Virus record (IMG/VR): IMGVR_UViG_3300024264_000029
Span: 664-64,663 of that record
From: a virus
Lineage: Duplodnaviria > Caudoviricetes
Strand: one strand, 5' to 3'
DNA length: 64,000 nucleotides
Shown: one piece after another, positions 45,890 through 57,994 of the stretch
How positions within the stretch are numbered: position 1 is the first letter of the stretch
Layout of the letters: each line of letters begins with the position of its first letter
Position numbers and translations under genes: made by a program
The notes under the pieces: generated by a model
Told to the model about the DNA's origin: nothing
The model's input: only the letters and a program-made list of their open reading frames with translations
Database searches by the model: none

Positions 45890-46813
45890 TCACATCTCTT
45901 CAGCAAGACGTTCAAAGTAACCAATCGAATCGTCTTCATCATCTGAAGATGAACTCTGTGGTTCTGGAGAACTCTCAGCATAACTAGGTGCCACCTTCTC
46001 TTTAAAAGAAGGTTTACTGAATGTTTGAGTCGGTGTTGACTCATCCATATCATAGTCTGCATTTGTTGATGGAGCAGTTACTCCAAGAACACGATCCAAA
46101 CGTTCTTTAATCTGTTCATAAGATTTAAAGTTATTTGGACTTACAAACTCTTCAAGAGAGTGTTGTTGATTATAAATTGTTTCCAATTCAGCATCGTCTT
46201 GTGACAAAGCACTAGTTCTATCGAACTCTGATTTGTCATAGTTACCATATCCATCAACAGTACGATACTTCAGTTTGAAGTTTGCACCTTCCCAGAAATC
46301 AAATGGGTTGATTGGATCTTCATCTTCGAACTGTGGACGCATGATATCGTTCAGCTTGTCAAAGATTTTTTTACCAAATGAATAGAGGAATACTTTTCCA
46401 TCATTATCTGGATTTGCGGGATCTTTCACGACATAGATATTTGAAATATATTTCAATCTACGTTTACGATCCCGAGCAAGGTTTTGATTCTCTTGCGAAC
46501 CAGTTCCCCATAGTTCTGTATTACTTTCGCAGACAGGACATGGTTTACCAATAGTAGTAAGACAGTTATCAATCAACCATCCGCCAGGGCCTTTAAATCC
46601 ATGATTAAAGATACGAACCCATGGCAAATCCTCACCATCAGTTGGTGGAAGAAAACGAATTACTGCATAACTGTTACCAGTCTTATCAATAGTCGGTTTC
46701 CAAAAGCGATCATCTTGTGATGATGAATTTGATTGTGGTTGTGATGTTTTTTCTAACTCTTCAGCAAGTTTACTGAAATTGTTACGATTCTTTTTAAGCG
46801 ATGCAAAAGACAT
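45890..46813 (-). CDS. gp32: Single-stranded DNA-binding protein gp32
   Basis: DDRFWKP..DK.GN.YAVIRFLP, HGFKGPGGW.I.NCLTT.G..CPVCE, GKKIFDK, NYDKSEF and an acidic tail. Confidence 0.96.
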   Translation of the reverse strand: MSFASLKKNRNNFSKLAEELEKTSQPQSNSSSQDDRFWKPTIDKTGNSYAVIRFLPPTDGEDLPWVRIFNHGFKGPGGWLIDNCLTTIGKPCPVCESNTELWGTGSQENQNLARDRKRRLKYISNIYVVKDPANPDNDGKVFLYSFGKKIFDKLNDIMRPQFEDEDPINPFDFWEGANFKLKYRTVDGYGNYDKSEFDRTSALSQDDAELETIYNQQHSLEEFVSPNNFKSYEQIKERLDRVLGVTAPSTNADYDMDESTPTQTFSKPSFKEKVAPSYAESSPEPQSSSSDDEDDSIGYFERLAEEM

Positions 46814-48891: not shown

Positions 48892-49566
48892 CTAAAATTG
48901 ATTCTTATATTCTTCTACCATATTTATCAGGTCGCCGATGTGTGCATCACGCTTTGAAATAAACACTTCTGGTTCATCCTTATCTGCGATTGCCGCAATA
49001 ATTACAAGACTATTTATAGGCATTTTATATCTCTCTTCAAACATAACTGCATATCCTGCAGCTTGACGGAAATATTTTTCTAACTTACCATATTTATCAC
49101 CGACCATAGGTTGCCTAGAAGTCTTAAAGTCGATTACGGACAACTTACCATCAAAATCTGCTACACAGTCTACAGTGCCTGCTAAACCAAGATGGTCAGA
49201 GTACATAGGTTTCTCTTGTGCATAGATATTATCAACACGATTATCAAGAACAGGTTTTATCTTCAAAAAAGTCTCTATGTCAAATGGCATAGTCTTTTCT
49301 GTTTTCCATTCTAGATTATTTAGGTGGTCTTCAGCCATTTGATGGACACTAGTTCCACTTCTTGCTGCTTGTGTTGTTATTTTGTTTGCAACTTCCGCAC
49401 CAACTCTTCTTCTCCACTCTGCAATACCCTTTGCGGAAAAATGTGAGAGAACAGTTGTGATAGATGGATACTTATTTCCATCTGGTGTTTCATAAAATCT
49501 TTTGCCATTTTCTGTAACCCTTTTTAAAGTGTGGGTTGGCAATTCAACATCTACATGATTAAACAT
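48892..49566 (-). CDS. Cas4-like PD-(D/E)XK exonuclease
   Basis: R.Y.TPDG.KYPSITTVL, GT.VH...E, E..MYS...LAGTVDC and IDFKTS...Y..Q..GYA. Confidence 0.88.
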   Translation of the reverse strand: MFNHVDVELPTHTLKRVTENGKRFYETPDGNKYPSITTVLSHFSAKGIAEWRRRVGAEVANKITTQAARSGTSVHQMAEDHLNNLEWKTEKTMPFDIETFLKIKPVLDNRVDNIYAQEKPMYSDHLGLAGTVDCVADFDGKLSVIDFKTSRQPMVGDKYGKLEKYFRQAAGYAVMFEERYKMPINSLVIIAAIADKDEPEVFISKRDAHIGDLINMVEEYKNQF

Positions 49567-49623
49567 TTTTAATTCCTATTTTAAGTTAAACCTCATCCTC
49601 CAGCTCAACTCTTCCTTTCTGTC
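49546..49623. repeat. 78-bp direct repeat, copy 1
   Basis: Identical to 50012..50089. Confidence 0.95.
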
Positions 49624-49790
49624 GATCCTAGTTCAGCCCCATCATAAAGACATTCTCATAAATGATACCATAGTATTAGTAAACCCTATTTTACGTCGAT
49701 TACTAATACTATGATGTTAGTTCAAATGTCCTTATGGTGGAGCTGTGGGGTACTGCCCCCCAGTCCAGTTCGTATTCGATTTGTTTCATC
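49619..49790 (-). ncRNA. Second permuted tmRNA-like element: tRNA-like domain plus intervening hairpin, with no tag reading frame
   Basis: Minus strand reads CTGGAC-TGGGG-GGCAGTA-CCCCA-CAGCTCC-A-CCA, then a 94-nt hairpin spacer, then GGGGCTG-AACTAGGATCGACAG. G3:U70 is present. The upper boundary is approximate. Confidence 0.8.
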
Positions 49791-51756: not shown

Positions 51757-51978
51757 TTAATCTTTATTAGAAACAAAAGAATACAATTCTTTAGCCTTAA
51801 CCATAAGTTCTTCCATAGAGTACATTTTATATGCATCTTGGACTTCTTCATAAGTTTTATTACCCTGCTCGTACATATCGTTCATCAACTGAACATTCAT
51901 ATGATATTGACTATCCATATAGTCTTTAGCAAGTTTAAGCATATCTGCTCTTATTTCAAATGGGTTCTTATTAGACAT
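51757..51978 (-). CDS. Conserved phage hypothetical protein
   Basis: NPFEIR.DMLKLAKDY...KAKELY.FVS; translationally coupled to the upstream gene. Confidence 0.7.
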   Translation of the reverse strand: MSNKNPFEIRADMLKLAKDYMDSQYHMNVQLMNDMYEQGNKTYEEVQDAYKMYSMEELMVKAKELYSFVSNKD

Positions 51979-52187
51979 TATTTCATTCCCTTCACAAACG
52001 CATCACCAGTTGCATTTGCAAAATCATTCATAGATTTTACTGCAATTTTTGTGAATGTTGTTTGGGCTTCAATAAAGGCCTTTAGTGGCGCAGACAAAGT
52101 TTCGTCTTTTACTAAAGTGTCAACCATTGTTTTCTTTGTAGTCTGGATATGGTCAATCCAGTAGTTTGTTGTCCAATCATTAATCAT
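51978..52187 (-). CDS. Small helical (phasin-like) protein
   Basis: ID.IQ..KK..V.T.V....L...L..FI.AQT.F.K; CAGGAG RBS. Confidence 0.55.
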   Translation of the reverse strand: MINDWTTNYWIDHIQTTKKTMVDTLVKDETLSAPLKAFIEAQTTFTKIAVKSMNDFANATGDAFVKGMK

Positions 52188-52213
52188 ATTTTTCTCCTGT
52201 GTGTTTGTGTAAA

Positions 52214-52258
52214 TTCCCCCTAACCATGGGGGGAAGCGTGCTGATTAAGGAGCAACCC
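52214..52258 (-). ncRNA. Unnamed two-hairpin RNA motif, copy A
   Basis: GGGT-TGCT-CCTTAATC-AGCA-CGC-TTCCCCC-CATGGTTA-GGGGGAA; covaries with 57202..57248. Confidence 0.75.
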
Positions 52259-52267
52259 TACAACTAT

Positions 52268-52621
52268 TTAGAAGCTGAATGATGCACCAATGCTAATATC
52301 ACCCATTCCCCACTCATCGTCTGTAGTGGTTTTTGTATATACTTCCAAGCCAGTTACTGAAGTTACTGGTAGTGTTACTTGATATTCCATACCTGTAAAT
52401 TCAATATCTTCTAGATCCATAATATTTGGGCCAACTTCTACGTTAGCAATACCAAAATTCCATGTCAAATCAGTTTCAAATGTCAAAGCATTTGTTTCTG
52501 TTTCCATGTTTCTTTCTGCTTTAAATTCACTGTCTAATGATAGACCATTTCCTAATTCAATCGCTGCGGCCGAACTTGCCAAACCAAGTGCAACAACACT
52601 TGCTGTAATAAGAGTTTTCAT
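52268..52621 (-). CDS. Small outer-membrane beta-barrel/porin-like protein
   Basis: Signal peptide MKTLITASVVALGLASSAAA, alternating beta strands, C-terminal IGASFSF (BAM-type terminal Phe). Confidence 0.65.
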   Translation of the reverse strand: MKTLITASVVALGLASSAAAIELGNGLSLDSEFKAERNMETETNALTFETDLTWNFGIANVEVGPNIMDLEDIEFTGMEYQVTLPVTSVTGLEVYTKTTTDDEWGMGDISIGASFSF

Positions 52622-52659
52622 TTCTGTATTTCCTTTGTTAAAATTCTTATAAATTAAAA

Positions 52660-52980
52660 TGTCACTACTTCTGTTGCTAGGTGAGTGACCAACCCCCTGT
52701 GGTTATGCTGCTAGAGCAAACTCAGATGGTGCAAAATTATCGTTTGCATTTGTAGTTTGTGGCTGAATAACGTAGGCCAACACGGTAATCTACTCTCATC
52801 TCTACACACCTGTCGATCCTAGTTCGCCCCCATCATAAATGCACTAACTTCGACTACCCATTCGGGCCATCTATGTTCTGCAAAACTTCCTGTTGCAGCA
52901 GGACGCAGTGCATTTATGGTGGAGGCGTTGGGTACTGCCCCCAAGTCCAGTATGTATGTTGAATCGTATCAACAATTACA
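52660..52980 (-). ncRNA. ssrA: Circularly permuted two-piece tmRNA (alphaproteobacterial type); tag ANDNFAPSEFALAA*
   Basis: The acceptor piece ends TTGGG-GGCAGTA-CCCAA-CGCCTCC-A-CCA at 52917. Intervening hairpin 52832..52916. The coding piece starts GGGGGCGAACTAGGATCGAC at 52831. Tag ORF 52747..52703. G3:U70 is present. Outer ends are approximate. Confidence 0.95.
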
Positions 52981-52986
52981 AGTATA

Positions 52987-53015
52987 CTTATAACATAGTT
53001 TTCCATGTGCGTCAA
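52987..53015 (-). promoter_or_regulatory. Sigma70-type promoter of the tmRNA
   Basis: TTGACG-N17-TATAAG just upstream of the acceptor piece. Confidence 0.75.
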
Positions 53016-53051
53016 TAGTTTTTCAACTTTTTAATACACATGGTATTTTTA

Positions 53052-53522
53052 TCACACTATCAGTTCGAAGTGTGGGCCATCAATAAATGGTCTGCGATTT
53101 TGAGAACGGCGCAAATCAATATATGCATTCATTGCATCTTCTGCTGTACCCTCATAAGAACGGATATCACCTTCTGACCATGCTGCTCCCCACTTGACTG
53201 CAACACCCTTTTCTTCTGCTGCCTGCTTGAATGCATCGCAGATGTTATCGTATACATTAATTTCCCACACAACATCTGATCCATCGTAAGCTACGACATC
53301 AACTGCATGTGAATATCCACTATCTTGAATAAGGTGTTTTGACTTCATAGTTTGAGAACGTCCAGATGCTACTAATTTTTCTTGCTCTTCGACCGTCCGA
53401 ACACCATATGTGACTCCGAAATCAACCGAAGTCAATTCGATAGCACGTTCTACGACTGCGACCATATCTGGATGGACACCTTCTAATTTAACCTTTGATC
53501 TATTTGATAATTTAAATGCCAT
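53052..53522 (-). CDS. Peptidase M15 family endolysin (L-Ala-D-Glu peptidase-like)
   Basis: LSNRS..KLEGVHPD, DF.V..GVRT.EEQ, SKHL..HAVD, WG..W and DGPHFEL. Confidence 0.9.
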   Translation of the reverse strand: MAFKLSNRSKVKLEGVHPDMVAVVERAIELTSVDFGVTYGVRTVEEQEKLVASGRSQTMKSKHLIQDSGYSHAVDVVAYDGSDVVWEINVYDNICDAFKQAAEEKGVAVKWGAAWSEGDIRSYEGTAEDAMNAYIDLRRSQNRRPFIDGPHFELIV

Positions 53523-53524
53523 AT

Positions 53525-54148
53525 CTAATCCTTTTCTGTTTCTATAATATTATCATCTTCATCAACTTCTAATTCATGTTTTGCAAAATCCATACTTATA
53601 TCTTCAATAGTAACACTAACATCATAATCATTCCAATTTGGAGTTTCCCCGCCGGGGCTTATATGTTCGTATTCTGTAGATATAGCAAATAGGATATCTT
53701 CTTCGTCTTTCTTTTCTTGATATTTTCCAAGATCAACTACCTTTGCAGTTCTATCTATACCAGACATTCTTTCTGCAATATCAATATTATCTTTCCGTTT
53801 TAGTTCTTCTAAAACACTCTTTAAAACGTTTTGTTCTTGGCTAACTTTTTTTAGAGATGTTACGCCCTCAACATCTTCTGGAAATAAGTCTGTTTCTCCA
53901 GAAAACCAACCAACATCTTCGCTTGAAAATGTCTTACCGTTATGATTATCTAATCGTAATGTTCCTCTCTTAATAAAATCATAACCAGAACTAATTAAAA
54001 ATTGTTCAACTCGTTCTAAAACATCGCTGATGACCATATCAGAAGCATCAACTGACATGCTCACTCGCATTCCTTCTCTACCATTTTCTCCTTCTACATA
54101 AGAAAACTCGAAATCTGCTTCAAAGGTATCTTCAATATCCATTATCAT
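53525..54148 (-). CDS. Hypothetical acidic protein
   Basis: 207-aa ORF with a GGAGG RBS. Confidence 0.65.
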   Translation of the reverse strand: MIMDIEDTFEADFEFSYVEGENGREGMRVSMSVDASDMVISDVLERVEQFLISSGYDFIKRGTLRLDNHNGKTFSSEDVGWFSGETDLFPEDVEGVTSLKKVSQEQNVLKSVLEELKRKDNIDIAERMSGIDRTAKVVDLGKYQEKKDEEDILFAISTEYEHISPGGETPNWNDYDVSVTIEDISMDFAKHELEVDEDDNIIETEKD

Positions 54149-54151
54149 CTC

Positions 54152-54958
54152 CTATAAATAATTATCTAAACTATTTTCTGCTTTATATCTTGCGATATTG
54201 TTTTTATTGTGTTCCACATCCTTACTATGTATAAAAGGCATTTCAGAACTAATAGTATAACTAGTTTCGCCTGGGCGTTTGATCTTCCATTCTAGATCGG
54301 CATCTTTGGGATAATTCATATCCCATTCACAAGTGGAATTTCTATTCATATACTTTCTATCTTTTTTGGTTATTGGATAGATATACCTAAATTGTTTTCC
54401 CCATACTCTAGAAAAACCCAACTCGCCCATTTTTTCATCATTTGGCCTTGGCCCATACTTCAAATCATCACGGCCCATTTCCTTTTTCATTTTTCTTTGT
54501 ATAGTTCTGAAATGAACTTTTTCGCCCTTATCAGTGACATATACATCGCTCCATATAAATCCCCCATGTAAAAAATTAGCAGATTGATAGACATAGCCAG
54601 GCTTGCCTACAATACCATCTGCCCAAGTATACAGAAATTTTATATCTGGAGTATTATCTCTCATCCATTTTACTGTTTGAGACAACATCTGACTCTCTGA
54701 ATTTCTTGGCATAGATTCGTCCATACACATTTTGCCAATTTCAAAATAATCTTTTGTAGTCAATTCTGGAAACATTTTCTTAATTGTTCCCATAGGATTT
54801 GTTCCCCATCCTAATGTCAGCACACCAACTAATACATCTTTATCAAAAAACCCAAGATAGTGTTTAGTCAATCTAGGCATAACAGCAGAATAATGCCTCT
54901 CTGCAACAAACAGAGAGGCTGTATTCTTATGAAGTTTTTTGATATTGAAAGTTACCAT
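54152..54958 (-). CDS. Mom-like (GNAT-fold) DNA modification protein
   Basis: A..FV...HYS, LVGV.TLG, FEI.KM......RN.ES..LS and LYTWAD...G..G.VYQSANF. Confidence 0.7.
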   Translation of the reverse strand: MVTFNIKKLHKNTASLFVAERHYSAVMPRLTKHYLGFFDKDVLVGVLTLGWGTNPMGTIKKMFPELTTKDYFEIGKMCMDESMPRNSESQMLSQTVKWMRDNTPDIKFLYTWADGIVGKPGYVYQSANFLHGGFIWSDVYVTDKGEKVHFRTIQRKMKKEMGRDDLKYGPRPNDEKMGELGFSRVWGKQFRYIYPITKKDRKYMNRNSTCEWDMNYPKDADLEWKIKRPGETSYTISSEMPFIHSKDVEHNKNNIARYKAENSLDNYL

Positions 54959-55221
54959 CAGGCATCCTTCATCATGAATGAACGTTGTTTCTTTGGATCG
55001 CCCCAGACTTCACGAGCATTAATTTTAATCTTTCTACGATTAGTTTCATTCTTGTTTGGATTGTCGATAGTCAAAACAACATTCCTACCTTTTGACCACG
55101 CTTGGCGCTGTCTTAGTGCATGTTCCAAAGTACCCTTTGCACGTTTAGTACATCCAGACTTTGCAACATTTCTACGTTCACCTTTAGAAACGTATTGATC
55201 TCTTGATTTTTTACCAGCCAT
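54958..55221 (-). CDS. Basic hypothetical protein
   Basis: 87 aa; YVSKGER.NV and LTIDNPNK.ETNR; coupled to its neighbours. Confidence 0.7.
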   Translation of the reverse strand: MAGKKSRDQYVSKGERRNVAKSGCTKRAKGTLEHALRQRQAWSKGRNVVLTIDNPNKNETNRRKIKINAREVWGDPKKQRSFMMKDA

Positions 55222-55517
55222 TAACCTAATCCTCTCGCCCAGCTTTGAAGACGTTCAAATCTAAATGAGCGCCATCCTTCTTTTTCTAAATCCCAAACTA
55301 CAATAAGATTATCATCTTTTTCTTTTGGAATATCACCTTCTGCCTCAGTTGGATTATCAGGATATGGAATCATACGTGGATTTGTAGTACACATCATATC
55401 ACGAATAGTTCCATCAGCCTTTTCAAACTTTACAAGGCACTTTCTTTTTGACAGATCTTCCTTTAGTTGACTTCGCTTTGCTTCGTCCACTACTACTTCG
55501 TTTTCGTTTTCCGACAT
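55221..55517 (-). CDS. WYL_2/SH3-like fold protein
   Basis: V.FEK.DG.IR.M.CT...VWD.EK.GWRSFR. Confidence 0.75.
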   Translation of the reverse strand: MSENENEVVVDEAKRSQLKEDLSKRKCLVKFEKADGTIRDMMCTTNPRMIPYPDNPTEAEGDIPKEKDDNLIVVWDLEKEGWRSFRFERLQSWARGLG

Positions 55518-56046
55518 CTTTAGTTTCCTTTTTACTTTCTATAACATCATCTCTAATTTTTTCAAAGTGTTTCCAATGTTTGGGTGTATCATTGTAACGT
55601 CCATTATACAATATATTCCAGTCTTTGTCAATAGAATTCCAATACATCAAATGAAAGTTTTCTGCTTTGGTTTTTGCCTTTGCATATATCATATCGCCAG
55701 GAAATTCTAATTTTTCATAAATTAAAGAATCATCAAACTTTGCCTTGGGTGTTGGTTTTGGATATTTTTTTAAAACTGGTTGTGCGGCCTTGGTTTTGGG
55801 TGGGCGGTCATAATACACAGTTTTATTCTGTGGAATAGTCCACTTTTCATCTTCCTGTTCCAGCGCCTTTTTCTTATCGGCCTCAATTTGTGCCTTTGTT
55901 CTGCGCTTGCGTTTCTTCTTCACTGGAGATTTTTTTGGCGTGTCTTCTTCCAAATGGTCAAAGATATCACGAAACTTTGGTGTCGCTGCTCGAGCGGCTT
56001 CCATTTCTGCTTTAGTTCTGCGTTTTCGTTTAGGTTTCTGAGTCAT
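55423..56046 (-). CDS. Lys/Arg-rich hypothetical protein with two KRKRRTKA(E/Q) motifs
   Basis: 207-aa ORF; its 3' end overlaps the WYL_2 gene. Confidence 0.6.
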   Translation of the reverse strand: MTQKPKRKRRTKAEMEAARAATPKFRDIFDHLEEDTPKKSPVKKKRKRRTKAQIEADKKKALEQEDEKWTIPQNKTVYYDRPPKTKAAQPVLKKYPKPTPKAKFDDSLIYEKLEFPGDMIYAKAKTKAENFHLMYWNSIDKDWNILYNGRYNDTPKHWKHFEKIRDDVIESKKETKDVGKRKRSSSGRSKAKSTKGRSVKKKVPCKV

Positions 56047-56290
56047 CTTTTTTTCTTCCTAACAGATTTTGTTGCTGTTTTTCCAACAACTGGTCACGAA
56101 TATCAACAACACTTTCGTTGTTAACCATATCAATTATTAAATTAGTAAGATTTATTTCTTGATTCAGATAGTATACTTTTTGTTTCAACTTGTCAAGTTG
56201 TTTTAAGTAATATTCCAATTCTTTTTCTTTTCTGACTTTTTGTTCAATATAGTCAGTAAGCAAAATTAATTTTTTTTCTTTTTCGGTCAT
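56030..56290 (-). CDS. Coiled-coil hypothetical protein
   Basis: LILL.D.IEQK.RKEKEL.YY. Confidence 0.7.
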   Translation of the reverse strand: MTEKEKKLILLTDYIEQKVRKEKELEYYLKQLDKLKQKVYYLNQEINLTNLIIDMVNNESVVDIRDQLLEKQQQNLLGRKKDDSET

Positions 56291-56308
56291 TACAATTCCA
56301 ATATTAAA

Positions 56309-56384
56309 TGGTGCCCGTCGAGAGACTTGAACTCCCGACCTACTGATTACAAATCAGTTGCTCTACCAACTGAGCTAGACGGGC
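56309..56384 (-). tRNA. tRNA-Thr(UGU)
   Basis: Cloverleaf; anticodon loop TTTGTAA; GTTCAAG T-loop; encoded CCA. Confidence 0.95.
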
Positions 56385-56561
56385 CTATTTAAGTGTCATC
56401 TCAATTTTAACCAGTACTACACTACCATCAATTTCCATTGCAGCAAAAGTGTCTGCTTGTTGAATTCCCATTTCTTTAAAATTTTTAGTAGTTGATAAAC
56501 GAATGTTGCCGTCACTATCAGTGTTCCATGTATCTTTATTTGCTGTCACTTGATTTCTCAT
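56385..56561 (-). CDS. 58-aa hypothetical protein
   Basis: MRNQVTANKDTWNTDSDGNIRL...VKIEMTLK; fills the gap between the SET gene and tRNA-Thr. Confidence 0.55.
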   Translation of the reverse strand: MRNQVTANKDTWNTDSDGNIRLSTTKNFKEMGIQQADTFAAMEIDGSVVLVKIEMTLK

Positions 56562-56564
56562 TAT

Positions 56565-56849
56565 TTACTCCATATTATAAAAAGTATATTCACATGTTAT
56601 TTCTTCACCCGACCTAATGTCTCTGGTCGCCACGATAAAGTATCTACTGTCTCTTCTAACCTTTTCTATGTTAGGTTCGCTAGAATGGTTGTAGAATGCG
56701 CCTATAGGGGTTCGTATTAGTTCTTCCCCCCAATGAAAGTGAGACATACCTAATTCAGTACCCTTTGCAATTGGTTTACATGCAAACAGTCCTAGTCCTT
56801 CAATATCAGAATTATGAATTGTTAAAAAGTCTGGTAAAGGTTTATACAT
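56565..56849 (-). CDS. Minimal SET-domain methyltransferase
   Basis: S.IEGLGLFA...I.KG, FYNHS.EPN and ATRDI.SGEEIT.EY. Confidence 0.88.
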   Translation of the reverse strand: MYKPLPDFLTIHNSDIEGLGLFACKPIAKGTELGMSHFHWGEELIRTPIGAFYNHSSEPNIEKVRRDSRYFIVATRDIRSGEEITCEYTFYNME

Positions 56850-56861
56850 CTTTTTCTTTCT

Positions 56862-56936
56862 TGGCTCCGGCGGTAGGGGTCGAACCTACGACCAATTGAT
56901 TAACAGTCAACTGCTCTACCACTGAGCTACGCCGGA
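56862..56936 (-). tRNA. tRNA-Asn(GUU)
   Basis: Cloverleaf; anticodon loop CTGTTAA; encoded CCA. Confidence 0.95.
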
Positions 56937-56943
56937 ATGTTTT

Positions 56944-57020
56944 TGGTCGGAGTTAGAGGATTCGAACCTCTGACCCTCTGCTCCCAAAGCAGATGCGCTA
57001 CCAGACTGCGCTAAACTCCG
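56944..57020 (-). tRNA. tRNA-Pro(UGG)
   Basis: Cloverleaf; anticodon loop TTTGGGA; encoded CCA. Confidence 0.95.
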
Positions 57021-57178
57021 TTTCTTGTTAAAAGATCGAGAACAACATTTAATTCATAAATTGCTTTATCTAAAACTAAATGTGCAGTTTGATTATCATT
57101 CTTTTTCTTTTCTTCGTGAAGAAACTCTAATCTTACCTTTATATAGTCTTCTGCTTCAGGTTTGCTTCCTCTACGCAT
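57011..57178 (-). CDS. 55-aa hypothetical protein whose stop codon lies inside tRNA-Pro
   Basis: MRRGSKPEAEDYIKVRLEFLHEEKKK...LTRNGV*; TGAGGA RBS. Confidence 0.6.
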   Translation of the reverse strand: MRRGSKPEAEDYIKVRLEFLHEEKKKNDNQTAHLVLDKAIYELNVVLDLLTRNGV

Positions 57179-57201
57179 AATATATCCTCATTTTATTGGT
57201 T

Positions 57202-57248
57202 GTGGGATTAACCATGATCCCACGCGCACTTATTAAGTTCAGTGACCC
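57202..57248 (-). ncRNA. Unnamed two-hairpin RNA motif, copy B
   Basis: GGGT-CACT-GAACTTAATA-AGTG-CGC-GTGGGAT-CATGGTTA-ATCCCAC. Confidence 0.75.
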
Positions 57249-57301
57249 TTTTGTGTGTCTTCTGCGACATTGCAAGGTAACAACACTTGACCTTTATTAA
57301 T

Positions 57302-57515
57302 GTGTAGGTGGGATTTAGGAATACCCACAATTCCAGAATGATACATCCTCTATCAAACTATCTGAAAAGCCTCATATCAAACTAGTTAGGTTTGAAATCT
57401 AGCACTCCCTGTCTCCAGAGTCTACCAGTGTCACTACAACTATGAGCCAAGTTAGGGGCTGTATTACCCCCATTTCCTTGCACTACAATCCCTACTCCGT
57501 CGAGTTTGGATTTTT
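57302..57515 (-). ncRNA. Structured ncRNA resembling the manA RNA motif
   Basis: ORF-free, multi-hairpin region directly 3' of tRNA-Gly. Blocks AAUCC, GUGCAAGGAAA, GAGGC and UUGUGGGUA...AAUCCCACCU resemble manA as I recall it. Confidence 0.55.
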
Positions 57516-57519
57516 TATT

Positions 57520-57593
57520 TGGAGCGGATGGAGAGAATCGAACTCTCGGCTTTAGATTGGAAATCTAAGGTATTACCATTATACGACATCCGC
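57520..57593 (-). tRNA. tRNA-Gly(UCC)
   Basis: Cloverleaf; anticodon loop TTTCCAA; encoded CCA. Confidence 0.93.
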
Positions 57594-57594
57594 A

Positions 57595-57906
57595 TTAAAC
57601 TTCTATATCTACAAATTCACCTTCCGTATAGGCAGCTGGAACACTAGTTCCATAAGCATCATATCTTGCCTTTGCTTGGTCTCTCAACGATTGAATTTCT
57701 TTCATACGTTCTTCAACTTGTCGAGTTTGTTGCAGTTTAAGATCAGTACGTGTAGATGCTTCAACAACACGAATACGTTCCTTTTCCATAGGAGGCATAA
57801 TATGCTCACTATTTGGATAGACATTAGGATGTCCATAAATTTGCGCTTGTATTTTTTGATGCATATCAAATGGCATTCCATTAGTCGGTAGCGTTTTCAT
57901 TTTCAT
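57595..57906 (-). CDS. Hypothetical protein
   Basis: 103 aa; GAAAGGA RBS; ends GEFVDIEV. Confidence 0.65.
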   Translation of the reverse strand: MKMKTLPTNGMPFDMHQKIQAQIYGHPNVYPNSEHIMPPMEKERIRVVEASTRTDLKLQQTRQVEERMKEIQSLRDQAKARYDAYGTSVPAAYTEGEFVDIEV

Positions 57907-57917
57907 CCTTTCCTAAT

Positions 57918-57994
57918 TGGCCTCCACTAGAGGATTCGAACCTCTGACCTAGTGCTTAGAAGGCACTTGCTCTATCCAGCTGAGCTAAGTGGAG
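57918..57994 (-). tRNA. tRNA-Arg(UCU)
   Basis: Cloverleaf; anticodon loop CTTCTAA; encoded CCA. Confidence 0.95.

What the first reader, a model, noticed from the sequence alone, without database searches (positions are those of the whole stretch)
52214..57248. Unnamed two-hairpin RNA motif present twice, with covarying stems and conserved loops
Seen: minus-strand copy A (52258->52214) is GGGT|TGCT|CCTTAATC|AGCA|CGC|TTCCCCC|CATGGTTA|GGGGGAA. Copy B (57248->57202) is GGGT|CACT|GAACTTAATA|AGTG|CGC|GTGGGAT|CATGGTTA|ATCCCAC. Two of 4 pairs in stem 1 and 6 of 7 pairs in stem 2 differ, yet all remain Watson-Crick. The unpaired GGGU, CUUAAU, CGC and the 8-nt loop CAUGGUUA are identical. Loop 1 UAAU(CA) can pair with loop 2 (UG)GUUA, giving a possible kissing pseudoknot. 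Each copy ends about 25 nt upstream of the ATG of a small gene (52187 and 57178). Inference: this pattern points to a selected RNA fold rather than a DNA duplication. It could be a riboswitch, a small ribozyme/processing signal or a protein-binding operator. I do not recognise it as a named family.
Basis: partly seen in the sequence, partly recalled or inferred. Interest (0 to 1): 0.88.

Follow-up and report, generated by a model that had tools for sequence, protein, structure and literature searches.

The report
New tmRNA-like phage RNA module
The two look-alike stretches are copies of a widespread, uncatalogued small folded RNA of marine T4-like phages whose first half has the same fold as a pseudoknot of the phages' own ribosome-rescue RNA (tmRNA); its job is still unknown.

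Summary
They belong to a large RNA family. Five pattern scans of viral contigs gave at least 190 loci carrying both stems and 122 distinct motif sequences. A scan of 185,579 prokaryote genomes for one loop variant gave 0 of 27 matches with both stems. No Rfam family matches.

The fold is more than two hairpins. The base just 5' of GGGU pairs with loop-1 position 3 in 116 of 119 sequences, using all four Watson-Crick types. This makes an H-type pseudoknot built like PK1 of these phages' own two-piece tmRNAs.

The proposed loop-loop kiss is not supported, and neither is a 5'-leader role for the small downstream genes. The element sits just 3' of tmRNA, tRNAs, gp32 or a small secreted-protein gene, always on the same strand. 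It is present once or twice per record. Hairpin 2 looks like a terminator in 42 of 117 cases.

The cultured phage Melnitz carries one copy. Function is unproven. My best guess is a 3'-end RNA module recognised through its invariant loops. A by-sequence look-up of earlier scan notes found nothing.

The parts
52214..52259 (-). Copy A of the motif. Pseudoknot 5' strand A52259-G52258; linker GGU 52257-52255; stem 1 52254-52251 with 52242-52239; loop 1 52250-52243, whose C52249 and T52248 pair with G52258 and A52259; linker CGC 52238-52236; stem 2 52235-52229 with 52220-52214; loop 2 CATGGTTA 52228-52221.
   Evidence: Read. R1 scores 61.9 bits and R2 scores 54.1 bits. The pseudoknot pair is inferred from family covariation.
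57202..57249 (-). Copy B of the motif. Pseudoknot 5' strand A57249-G57248; GGU 57247-57245; stem 1 57244-57241 with 57230-57227; 10-nt loop 1 57240-57231 (two extra bases at its 5' side; C57237 and T57236 pair with G57248 and A57249); CGC 57226-57224; stem 2 57223-57217 with 57208-57202; loop 2 57216-57209.
   Evidence: Read. R1 scores 62.7 bits and R2 scores 58.7 bits.
52612..53030 (-). Two-piece (permuted) tmRNA gene, tag ANDNFAPSEFALAA. It lies about 350 nt upstream of copy A on the same strand. Its pseudoknot PK1 (52784-52760: CG UGU UGGC CUA CG UUAUUCA GCCA) has the same architecture as the 5' half of the motif.
   Evidence: Rfam RF01849 at 126.9 bits and RF04321 at 118.8 bits. ARAGORN. 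Sequence. PK1 parse (row L023, a near-identical relative).
52268..52621 (-). Gene between the tmRNA and copy A. It encodes a 117-aa protein with a signal-peptide-like start and a C-terminal G.SF.F ending. Its stop codon lies 9 nt before GGGU of copy A. The same family lies directly upstream of the motif in 19 of the 75 instances that have a same-strand stop within 60 nt.
   Evidence: No Pfam or PHROG family.
57253..57292 (-). Pseudoknot-like element directly upstream of copy B. It resembles the terminal pseudoknot of these tmRNAs (ACCU..GCA..CAGAAG) and is conserved with compensatory changes in locus L057, where a complete tmRNA precedes it.
   Evidence: Only two lineages were compared, so this is tentative.
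51978..52187 (-). 69-aa ORF that starts 26 nt after copy A. The family as a whole shows no consistent link to this kind of downstream gene.
57011..57178 (-). 55-aa ORF that starts 23 nt after copy B. It overlaps the tRNA-Pro gene at 56944-57020 by 10 bases and may not be a real gene.

Best explanation
The two copies are members of an uncatalogued family of about 48-nt structured RNAs found in marine T4-like phages (Kyanoviridae type, often carrying tmRNA and tRNA genes).

Shown:
- The RNA of the strand as read folds into an H-type pseudoknot. The order is [N G], then GGU, GUU or UGU, then a 4-bp stem, one base, [C N'], UAAUA, and the return strand of the stem.
- After the pseudoknot come CG(C/U) and a 7-bp hairpin with the 8-nt loop CA(C/U)GGU(U/A)A.
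- The pseudoknot half has the architecture, and often nearly the sequence, of PK1 of these phages' own two-piece tmRNAs.
- The element is present once or twice per record. It points the same way as its neighbours. It sits directly 3' of a tmRNA, a tRNA or a few protein genes.

Inferred: it is a self-contained module transcribed as the 3' tail of the preceding RNA, probably descended from the tmRNA pseudoknot set. It marks and stabilises that 3' end. Hairpin 2 itself is the intrinsic terminator in about a third of cases, or a terminator follows it. Its invariant loops are read by a conserved partner that is not yet identified. It is not a leader that controls the small downstream genes.
For: Family and fold:
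- Unselected pattern matches in viral contigs carry both stems in 31 of 32, 110 of 120 and 4 of 4 loci. In prokaryote genomes the figure is 0 of 27.
- There are 122 distinct sequences, 28 stem-1 types and 77 stem-2 types.
- All 11 stem pairs covary, 98.6% of cells pair, and 0 of 500 shuffles reach the score.
- G.U outnumbers A.C 57 to 9.

Pseudoknot: column 6 pairs with column 17 as A-U 55, C-G 39, G-C 19, G.U 2, U-A 1 and non-pair 3, out of 119. The mutual information of 1.28 bits is the third highest of all column pairs. Neither column was in any search pattern or selection rule. The pair also holds in 21 of 22 further loci found without GGGT in the pattern.

tmRNA link:
- 25 of 30 distinct tmRNA PK1 regions parse to the same architecture, for example CG GGU GACU G CG UAAUU GGUC. 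Shuffled sequences do so in 696 of 6000 cases.
- A permuted tmRNA is present in 44 of 190 motif loci against 1 of 66 control loci.
- In all 32 unique cases the tmRNA is on the same strand. In 30 of 32 it lies upstream of, or abuts, the motif. In L057, L292 and L331 the motif begins within about 20 nt of the tmRNA's last pseudoknot.

3' position:
- A tRNA lies within 20 nt in 14 of 122 cases, always on the same strand.
- A same-strand stop codon lies within 30 nt upstream in 65 of 122.
- A terminator-like signal sits at or after hairpin 2 in 49 of 117 cases, against 4 of 117 in the 112 nt upstream.
- gp32 relatives without the motif have a plain terminator in the same slot.
- The gp32 subgroup with a weak stem 2 has its own terminator directly after the motif.

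Copy number: one copy in each of 10 records of 5-141 kb, including the complete Melnitz genome.
Against: - No experiment and no read-level RNA ends were available.
- About 20 invariant unpaired bases and a pseudoknot are far more than a terminator or a simple exonuclease block needs. That pattern is typical of aptamers, ribozymes or specific protein or RNA docking sites.
- Only 42 of 117 hairpin-2 stems are followed by a U-run. The window's copies have UUU (A) or none (B).
- RNA-library contigs run through both window copies (X9 records 25 and 32; contigs of X1, X2 and X5 cross copy A). So at least here the RNA does not simply end at the motif.
- A same-strand start codon follows within 30 nt in 59 of 122 cases. 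Position alone therefore cannot exclude a 5' role.
- Four motifs lie 6-7 nt in front of a tRNA.
- Most motif loci (146 of 190) show no tmRNA within the DNA fetched.
- The likeness to PK1 could be convergence on a small stable fold.
Confidence: 0.4

Rival explanations
1. The element binds the 3' ends of tRNA or tmRNA. The invariant GGU of loop 2 would pair with the ACC of an RCCA end, as loop L15 of RNase P RNA and the T-box bulge do. The pseudoknot would provide a second contact. The RNA would then sense, protect or sequester tmRNA or tRNA ends, in cis or in trans.
For: - G4, G5 and U6 of loop 2 are invariant in 119 of 119 sequences, but every search pattern fixed them.
- The loop variant CACGGUAA is the same 8-mer as in the L15 region of E. 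coli rnpB, GGCACGGUAAACUCC.
- In L15, G292 and G293 pair with C75 and C74 of tRNA. In type B RNase P RNA, L15 is an apical loop (PMC1874595, passages read).
- The window's own UGGU is the exact complement of the tmRNA end ACCA.
- The motif sits 4-5 nt behind an encoded RCCA in 11 of 122 cases. It is enriched next to tmRNA genes.
- An earlier scan note on another phage RNA gave this lead (e1-5380924). That note is a lead, not evidence.
Against: - The match is a post-hoc 8-mer likeness.
- GGU cannot be tested by covariation here because the patterns fixed it.
- Position 3 of the loop is C in 90 of 119 sequences, so A76 would be unpaired.
- No consistent complementarity between loop 2 and the cognate tmRNA body was found.
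- Many copies follow protein genes with no tRNA nearby.
Confidence: 0.17
2. The element is a small riboswitch. The pseudoknot and loop 2 form a ligand pocket, and hairpin 2 is the expression platform (a terminator, or control of the following ribosome-binding site).
For: - The element is about 48 nt with about 20 invariant unpaired bases and a pseudoknot.
- Hairpin 2 plus a U-run occurs in 42 of 117 cases.
- A start codon follows within 30 nt in 59 of 122 cases.
- These phages do use riboswitches: Melnitz has a glnA-type glutamine riboswitch 110 nt upstream of its motif copy (PMC9004378, section 8 read).
Against: - Downstream genes are heterogeneous and not metabolic: a gp33-like family 12, an Hsp20-like family 6 (both names are my reading of the printed sequences; neither cluster was searched against a family library), and 44 clusters among 88 in all.
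- Some copies lie between tRNA genes, next to an opposite-strand ORF, or after gp32 with a separate terminator.
- The pseudoknot half is shared with tmRNA PK1, which is not known to bind ligands.
- There is no Rfam hit, including both glutamine classes, preQ1, SAM-II/V and guanidine-III.
Confidence: 0.13
3. The element is a new small self-cleaving ribozyme, or an RNase processing signal, that frees the 3' end of the upstream tRNA, tmRNA or mRNA.
For: - Its size and conservation pattern fit small ribozymes.
- It lies 5-8 nt after tRNA 3' ends and shortly after the tmRNA's last pseudoknot.
- From recall: HDV-like 'theta' ribozymes occupy such a position behind tRNA genes in gut phages.
Against: - RNA-library contigs bridge both window copies with at least 43 nt on each side. 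Contigs cannot exclude partial cleavage.
- No Rfam ribozyme model matches.
- The pseudoknot half is a tmRNA-type structural pseudoknot.
Confidence: 0.08
4. The element is only an ornate intrinsic terminator or a repeated extragenic palindrome, with no further function. Alternatively it is a DNA-level site such as an origin or a recombination site.
For: - It occupies the slot held by plain terminators in relatives.
- A U-run follows in 44 of 122 cases.
Against: - The invariant loops, the linker and a covarying pseudoknot pair are not needed for termination.
- 75 of 117 have no U-run after hairpin 2.
- It is present in one or two copies per record, not repeated.
- The G.U to A.C ratio of 57 to 9 and the pseudoknot argue for a single-stranded RNA of one strand, not duplex DNA.
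Confidence: 0.05

Closest known systems
Pseudoknot PK1 of two-piece (permuted) tmRNA, alphaproteobacterial and phage type (Rfam RF01849, RF04321)
   Same: The H-type architecture and spacing are the same: [N G], 3 nt, a 4-bp stem, 1-3 nt, [C N'], an AU-rich 5-7 nt loop (often UAAUA), then the return strand. N and N' covary in both. PK1 occurs in the same phages, often within a few hundred nt and on the same strand.
   Different: The motif has no tRNA-like domain, no resume codon and no tag frame. It is followed by CGY and a hairpin with an invariant loop, where tmRNA has the single-stranded tag template. Its linker and loop are much more conserved than in PK1. Rfam's tmRNA models do not match it.
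Glutamine-II riboswitch (Downstream-peptide motif, RF01704) and glnA glutamine riboswitch (RF01739)
   Same: These are small marine and phage RNAs with two hairpins and a pseudoknot that involves the 5' tail. The hairpin-2 loop of the RF01704 consensus begins CAUGG (consensus printed). A glnA-type copy follows the tmRNA in Melnitz.
   Different: There is no hit to either model on the window copies or on L277 at E <= 10. In Melnitz the riboswitch (L401 1337-1385) and the motif (L401 1495-1552) are separate elements. The pseudoknot partners differ: here the 5' flank pairs with loop 1, while there the 5' tail pairs with loop 2. A loose three-part glnA-like pattern found no copy in 122 motif loci.
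Intrinsic (Rho-independent) terminator
   Same: Hairpin 2 is a GC-rich 7-bp stem, followed by a U-run in 42 of 117 cases. It holds the place of ordinary terminators in related phages.
   Different: It has an 8-nt invariant loop, an upstream pseudoknot and conserved linkers. Most copies, including both in the window, have no U-run.
RCCA-binding GG(U) loops: L15 of RNase P RNA and the T-box antiterminator bulge
   Same: There is an invariant GGU in an accessible loop. One loop variant equals the E. coli L15 8-mer. L15 is an apical loop in type B RNase P RNA (PMC1874595).
   Different: This is a likeness of a short loop only. There is no other RNase P or T-box feature and no binding data. The T-box part is recalled, not tested.
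wcaG RNA motif and other orphan marine-phage RNA motifs (Rfam RF01761; named in an earlier scan note)
   Same: Orphan pseudoknotted RNAs of marine phages with unknown function.
   Different: No Rfam family, wcaG included, reached E <= 10 on the motif.

Membership tests
Any Rfam 15 family (4227 models) | Covariance-model score at or near the family's gathering threshold | tested here: not met
   Copy A gave 0 hits at E <= 10. Copy B's region gave only Yar_2 at 9.7 bits against a threshold of 50, lying mostly outside the motif. The L277 representative gave best hits of 18.3 bits or less, against thresholds of 34 or more.
tmRNA (RF01849 / RF04321) | tRNA-like domain with an acceptor stem ending in CCA and a T-arm | tested here: not met
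   The motif is 46-48 nt and holds only a pseudoknot and a hairpin. ARAGORN and Rfam place the tmRNA elsewhere.
tmRNA (RF01849 / RF04321) | Resume codon and tag reading frame ending in ..ALAA plus a stop | tested here: not met
   There is no such frame in or after the motif. An in-frame UAA or UAG in loop 1 is present in 117 of 119 sequences. However, 11 of 119 have another stop within the 5 codons upstream, no tag-like peptide appears, and the dependence test is weak (p = 0.03, not corrected for relatedness).
tmRNA (RF01849 / RF04321) | PK1-type H pseudoknot | tested here: met
   The same architecture is found in 25 of 30 phage tmRNA PK1 regions, against 696 of 6000 shuffles. The -1 base and loop position 3 covary in the motif.
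Glutamine riboswitches (RF01739, RF01704) | Model match, with the CGUUC / GGAACG pairing and the GGAAGUA core | tested here: not met
   No hit on the motif. In Melnitz the riboswitch is a separate element 110 nt upstream.
Intrinsic terminator | GC-rich hairpin immediately followed by a U-run | tested here: inconclusive
   Met by hairpin 2 in 42 of 117 family members. Not met by window copy B. Copy A has only UUU.
Known small self-cleaving ribozymes (hammerhead, twister, twister-sister, pistol, hatchet, HDV-like) | Match to the family's covariance model; site-specific self-cleavage | tested here: not met
   No model match. Cleavage itself cannot be tested with these tools. RNA-library contigs bridge both copies.
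RCCA-binding loop (RNase P L15 type) | GG that base-pairs with C74 and C75 of a tRNA 3' end | not testable with these tools
   An invariant GGU is present, and one variant equals the E. coli L15 8-mer. No binding or covariation test was possible because the patterns fixed GGU.

The most novel reading that the evidence does not exclude
The motif is a minimal, phage-encoded reader of RCCA 3' ends. A tmRNA-PK1-type pseudoknot is fused to an RNase-P-L15-like or T-box-like GGU loop. The RNA docks on the free ACCA end of the phage's two-piece tmRNA or of tRNAs. That would let the phage sense or shield their charging and processing state and, where hairpin 2 is the terminator, couple this state to read-through. 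It would be a new class of RNA-RNA sensor much smaller than a T-box.
Probability: 0.15. Interest if true: 0.9.

Novelty: new variant of a known kind. Interest (0 to 1): 0.75.

Why it matters
A roughly 48-nt RNA with about 20 invariant unpaired bases, a proven pseudoknot pair and hundreds of divergent members is the profile of RNAs that later turned out to be riboswitches, ribozymes or specific docking modules.

This one is abundant in marine T4-like phage contigs (relatives of Pelagibacter and OM43 myophages), and it is absent from Rfam. It shows that a tmRNA pseudoknot fold is also used as a free-standing module next to tmRNA and tRNA genes. That gives a new handle on why these phages carry their own ribosome-rescue RNA.

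A cultured host-phage pair has one copy: Melnitz on Methylophilales strain H5P1. The function is therefore directly testable.

It also corrects annotation. The 33-aa CDS MelnitzEXVC044M_89 lies antisense over the motif and is probably not a gene.

Tried and rejected
Rejected. Loop-2 position 7 changes U to A in 19 of 119 sequences with no change at the invariant loop-1 A19 and A20. There is also no strict linkage between loop-2 positions 3 and 7: the four combinations number 74, 26, 16 and 3.
- **Closing helix between GGGU and the 3' tail (AAC.. / ACC..).** Considered from the listing. Not pursued: the tail is U-rich in the terminator class, and GGGU was fixed by the patterns.
- **Loop 2 complementary to the cognate tmRNA.** There were only 2 perfect 8-of-8 sites in 32 loci. 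The recurrent 7-of-8 sites lean on G.U pairs in conserved tag codons. No convincing site.
- **Loop-1 UAA as a functional stop codon, like the end of a tmRNA tag.** Weak (p = 0.03, uncorrected). The tmRNA PK1 loops carry the same AU-rich letters upstream of the resume codon.
- **Identity with the Melnitz 'glutamine riboswitch'.** Rejected.
- **glnA-like pattern near the motif.** 0 of 122 loci. The three-part pattern may miss variants.
- **BLAST of 61-76-nt motif stretches against 50,697 phage records.** No match, 17 mostly spurious matches (the Melnitz rows were real) and 2 spurious matches. BLAST is poorly suited to this motif.
- **Fetching relatives of the small secreted protein by alignment.** This failed because there was no conserved stretch. 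The single protein found only 9 close loci.
- **gp32 route.** Of the 80 closest gp32 loci only 2 carry the motif, so it is sporadic even among close relatives.
- **RNA runs.** All four runs laid (3 studies) are Logan contigs, so no starts, ends, strand or level can be read. The stretches without cover in X9 and the depth figures are not used as evidence.
- **Cellular genomes.** 'Virus-only' is therefore shown for that variant alone.
- **Prior catalogue.** PMC10690425 lists 8,495 candidate structured RNAs from IMG/VR. Its passages mention candidates upstream of GP32 but nothing recognisable as this motif. Its supplementary tables, which I could not open, may list it anonymously.
- **Other literature searches.** The loop 8-mer and phage structured-RNA surveys gave no description of it. 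led to the Melnitz paper.

Full report
**Observation.** Two of 4 pairs in stem 1 and 6 of 7 in stem 2 differ and all stay paired. GGGU, CUUAAU, CGC and the loop CAUGGUUA are identical. The next ATGs follow after 26 and 23 nt.

The window alone proves little. The loop 8-mer occurs 3 times against 2.67 expected. Single-sequence folding gives z-scores of -1.2 and -1.7, and for copy A the minimum-energy fold does not use hairpin 1.

The window is 64,000 of the 64,663 bases of an IMG/VR virus record that CheckV rates as about 32% complete. It carries a permuted tmRNA at 52612-53030(-), five tRNA genes at 56309-57994(-) and a second, tag-less tmRNA-like tRNA domain at 49619-49769(-).

**Is it a family?** I scanned the viral contig collection with exact IUPAC patterns that specify only the unpaired letters.
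Of these, 45 had 3-4 of 4 and 6-7 of 7 pairs. A further 7 are members with a bulge or a one-base shift. The rest looked like chance.
- With tighter patterns no selection was needed.
- As a control, the CATGGTTA pattern over one genome for each of 185,579 prokaryote species gave 27 matches and none with both stems. The commoner variants could not be scanned there.

In all there are 192 hits in 190 loci, 122 distinct motif sequences, 28 stem-1 types and 77 stem-2 types. On the gap-free alignment A6 (119 distinct sequences), 98.6% of cells pair and every stem pair shows changes on both sides. None of 500 shuffles, and no slid register, comes near the observed score (A1 gave the same picture). These alignments were selected on stem pairing, so the unselected counts above are the fair test. 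G.U pairs number 57 and A.C pairs 9, with 8 of the 9 at the outermost pair of stem 2. The structure therefore belongs to the RNA, or single strand, as read. No Rfam 15 family reaches E <= 10 on either copy or on a representative of the commonest subfamily.

**The fold is a pseudoknot plus a hairpin.** Mutual information over all column pairs of A6 put one non-stem pair among the stems. This is the base immediately 5' of GGGU (column 6) with the third base of loop 1 (column 17), at 1.28 bits, third highest overall. The pair counts are A-U 55, C-G 39, G-C 19, G.U 2, U-A 1 and unpaired 3, out of 119. Neither column was part of any pattern or filter.

The neighbouring invariant G (first G of GGGU) and C (loop-1 position 2) extend this to a two-pair helix. 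That step is inference, since the pair never varies. A scan without GGGT in the pattern added 22 new loci. In them the 5' segment is GGGU, GGUU or GUGU, and the covarying pair holds in 21 of 22.

The consensus is: N G (G/U)(G/U) U, a 4-bp stem, (A/C/G) C N' U A A U A, the return strand, C G (C/U/a), a 7-bp stem around CA(C/U)GGU(U/A)A, then usually A. Both window copies obey it: A52259 with T52248 and A57249 with T57236. Copy B has two extra bases at the 5' side of loop 1.

Loop-2 position 7 is A in 19 of 119 sequences while its proposed partners never change. The first base of loop 1 correlates with the closing pair of stem 1 and with the GGGU/GGUU/GUGU variant. I cannot explain this.

**Relation to tmRNA.** Model R2 gave a weak partial hit inside the Melnitz tmRNA (11.7 bits, E 0.06). 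Following this up, I extracted the 62 nt before the resume codon of the 30 distinct permuted tmRNAs that lie in motif loci. Twenty-five of the 30 parse as [N G], 3 nt, a 4-bp stem, 1-3 nt, [C N'], 5-7 nt, then the return strand, with N pairing N'. Shuffles of the same sequences do so in 696 of 6000 cases. Typical forms are CG GAU GACU G CG UAAUA GGUC and CG GGU GACU G CG UAAUU GGUC, almost the motif's consensus. The window's own tmRNA PK1 (52784-52760) is a longer-looped version.

So the 5' half of the motif has the fold of tmRNA PK1. In tmRNA the fold is followed by the single-stranded tag template. In the motif it is followed by CGY and hairpin 2. Whether this is descent or convergence is not shown.

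**Where it sits.** The element runs the same way as every tRNA within 300 nt and every tmRNA found in its locus.
- *tmRNA.* ARAGORN finds a permuted tmRNA in 44 of 190 motif loci against 1 of 66 control loci, the chance hits. Among the 32 unique cases all are on the same strand. In 30 the tmRNA lies upstream of, or abuts, the motif. In L057, L292 and L331 the motif begins within about 20 nt of the tmRNA's last pseudoknot. About 350 nt separates them when the small secreted-protein gene is inserted, as in the window.
- *tRNA.* A tRNA gene lies within 20 nt in 14 of 122 cases, always on the same strand. It is upstream in 10 and downstream in 4. An encoded RCCA ends 4-5 nt before GGGU in 11 of 122.
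- *Protein genes.* A same-strand stop codon lies within 30 nt upstream in 65 of 122, and a same-strand start within 30 nt downstream in 59 of 122. These are mechanical ORFs of 45 aa or more.
- *Upstream families.* The small secreted protein that ends in G.SF.F accounts for 19 of 75, gp32 single-stranded-DNA-binding protein for 14, and an 85-94-aa protein for 9.
- *Downstream families.* They are more scattered: 44 clusters among 88, the largest a gp33-like coactivator family with 12. The names gp33-like and Hsp20-like are my reading of the printed sequences; neither cluster was searched against a family library.
- *Terminators and promoters.* A terminator-like hairpin plus U-run is found at hairpin 2 (42) or shortly after it (7) in 49 of 117 cases. 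It is found in only 4 of 117 within the 112 nt before the motif. The T4 late-promoter word TATAAATA lies within 80 nt downstream in 15 of 117 and upstream in 6 of 117.
- *Relatives without the motif.* Of the 80 closest gp32 loci only 2 carry the motif. A sample of the others, and Pelagibacter phage Mosig, have an ordinary terminator in the same slot. In the gp32 subgroup whose stem 2 is weak (an A.A mismatch), a separate terminator follows at once.
- *Copy number.* One copy in each of 10 records of 5-141 kb, and two in the window and its close relatives.

**Cultured phages.** Methylophilales phage Melnitz (MZ577097.1) has one copy at 46556-46613(+). It scores 41.8 bits with R2 and has a 6-bp stem 2 and a 9-nt loop. 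The copy lies between the tmRNA and the late-transcription coactivator gene. It overlaps an annotated 33-aa antisense CDS.

The Melnitz paper reports a glutamine riboswitch at the 3' end of ssrA (PMC9004378; abstract, passages and section 8 read). Rfam places that riboswitch at L401 1337-1385 (RF01739, 52.8 bits), 110 nt before the motif. The two are therefore different elements. Mosig, phage C48C1 and Syn33 have no copy.

**Expression.** Twenty listed runs from 9 studies hold part of the 5.5-kb stretch, and 12 are on record as RNA. I laid four runs from three studies; all are contigs. Contigs bridge copy A (X1, X2, X5, and X9 record 25 at 52158-52721) and copy B (X9 record 32 at 57159-57325). 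This shows RNA-library molecules that run through the motifs. It shows nothing about ends or strand.

**How it most likely works.**
- *Shown:* a conserved pseudoknot-plus-hairpin RNA of one strand; low copy number; attached 3' of tmRNA, tRNA and some mRNAs; often ending in or followed by a terminator.
- *Inferred, about 0.4:* it is a 3'-end module of tmRNA-pseudoknot ancestry that is co-transcribed with the upstream RNA. It defines and stabilises that RNA's 3' end and is recognised through its invariant loops.
- *What weighs against this:* the amount of conservation exceeds what a terminator needs. Most copies lack a U-run. The window copies are read through.
- *Rivals:* RCCA-end binding through the invariant GGU of loop 2 (0.17), a small riboswitch (0.13), a ribozyme or processing signal (0.08), and a mere terminator or DNA site (0.05).

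On the RCCA-binding rival: one loop variant equals the 8-mer in loop L15 of E. coli RNase P RNA. The two G's of that loop pair with C74 and C75 of tRNA (PMC1874595, passages read). This remains a lead, not a test.

**Novelty.** The family is not in Rfam. I found no description in the searches, or in the passages of PMC10690425 read. The fold type and the tmRNA likeness make it a new variant of a known kind, namely a free-standing relative of a tmRNA pseudoknot. Its function is unknown.

Noticed in passing
window 49619-49769 (-): A second permuted tmRNA-like tRNA domain (T-arm, CCA end, intervening stretch, 5' acceptor strand; RF01849 positions 85-169, 62.5 bits). It has no recognisable tag template and is followed directly by the ribosome-binding site and start of a 224-aa ORF (48892-49566).
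   Followed up: partly
window 52268-52621 (-); loci L014, L020, L031, L042, L060, L083, L098, L102, L111: A family of small (110-153 aa) phage proteins with a signal-peptide-like N-terminus, alternating beta-like segments and a C-terminal G.(S/T)F.F, like the last strand of outer-membrane barrels. No Pfam or PHROG family matches. It often sits between the tmRNA and the motif.
   Followed up: partly
window 57253-57292 (-); L057; L334: Copy B is preceded by an element that resembles the terminal pseudoknot of these tmRNAs. In L057 and L334 the same unit (this element plus the motif) follows a complete tmRNA. In the window it stands apart from the tmRNA, about 270 nt downstream of tRNA-Gly.
   Followed up: partly
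L401 1431-1532 (MZ577097.1 46492-46593, minus strand): The annotated 33-aa hypothetical CDS MelnitzEXVC044M_89 lies antisense across the motif and is probably spurious. On the sense strand, a 32-codon ORF that starts after the glutamine riboswitch ends with UGA inside GGGUGA at the start of the motif.
   Followed up: no
alignment A6 column 15 with columns 8-9 and 14/23; loci L407-L424: The first base of loop 1 tracks the 5' segment (GGGU with A or C, GGUU mostly with G, GUGU with A) and the closing pair of stem 1 (C with G-C, A with U-A or U.G). This may be a further tertiary contact. It is unexplained.
   Followed up: partly
window 53052-53522 (-): A 156-aa endolysin-like protein (phrog_465, E 3e-56) lies immediately upstream of the tmRNA promoter region.
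   Followed up: no
loci L299, L392, L319, L335: Some motif-bearing contigs carry very large tRNA arrays (36, 22, 15 and 13 tRNA genes within the DNA fetched). The motif is spaced 5-14 nt behind the nearest tRNA, as if it were one more array unit.
   Followed up: partly
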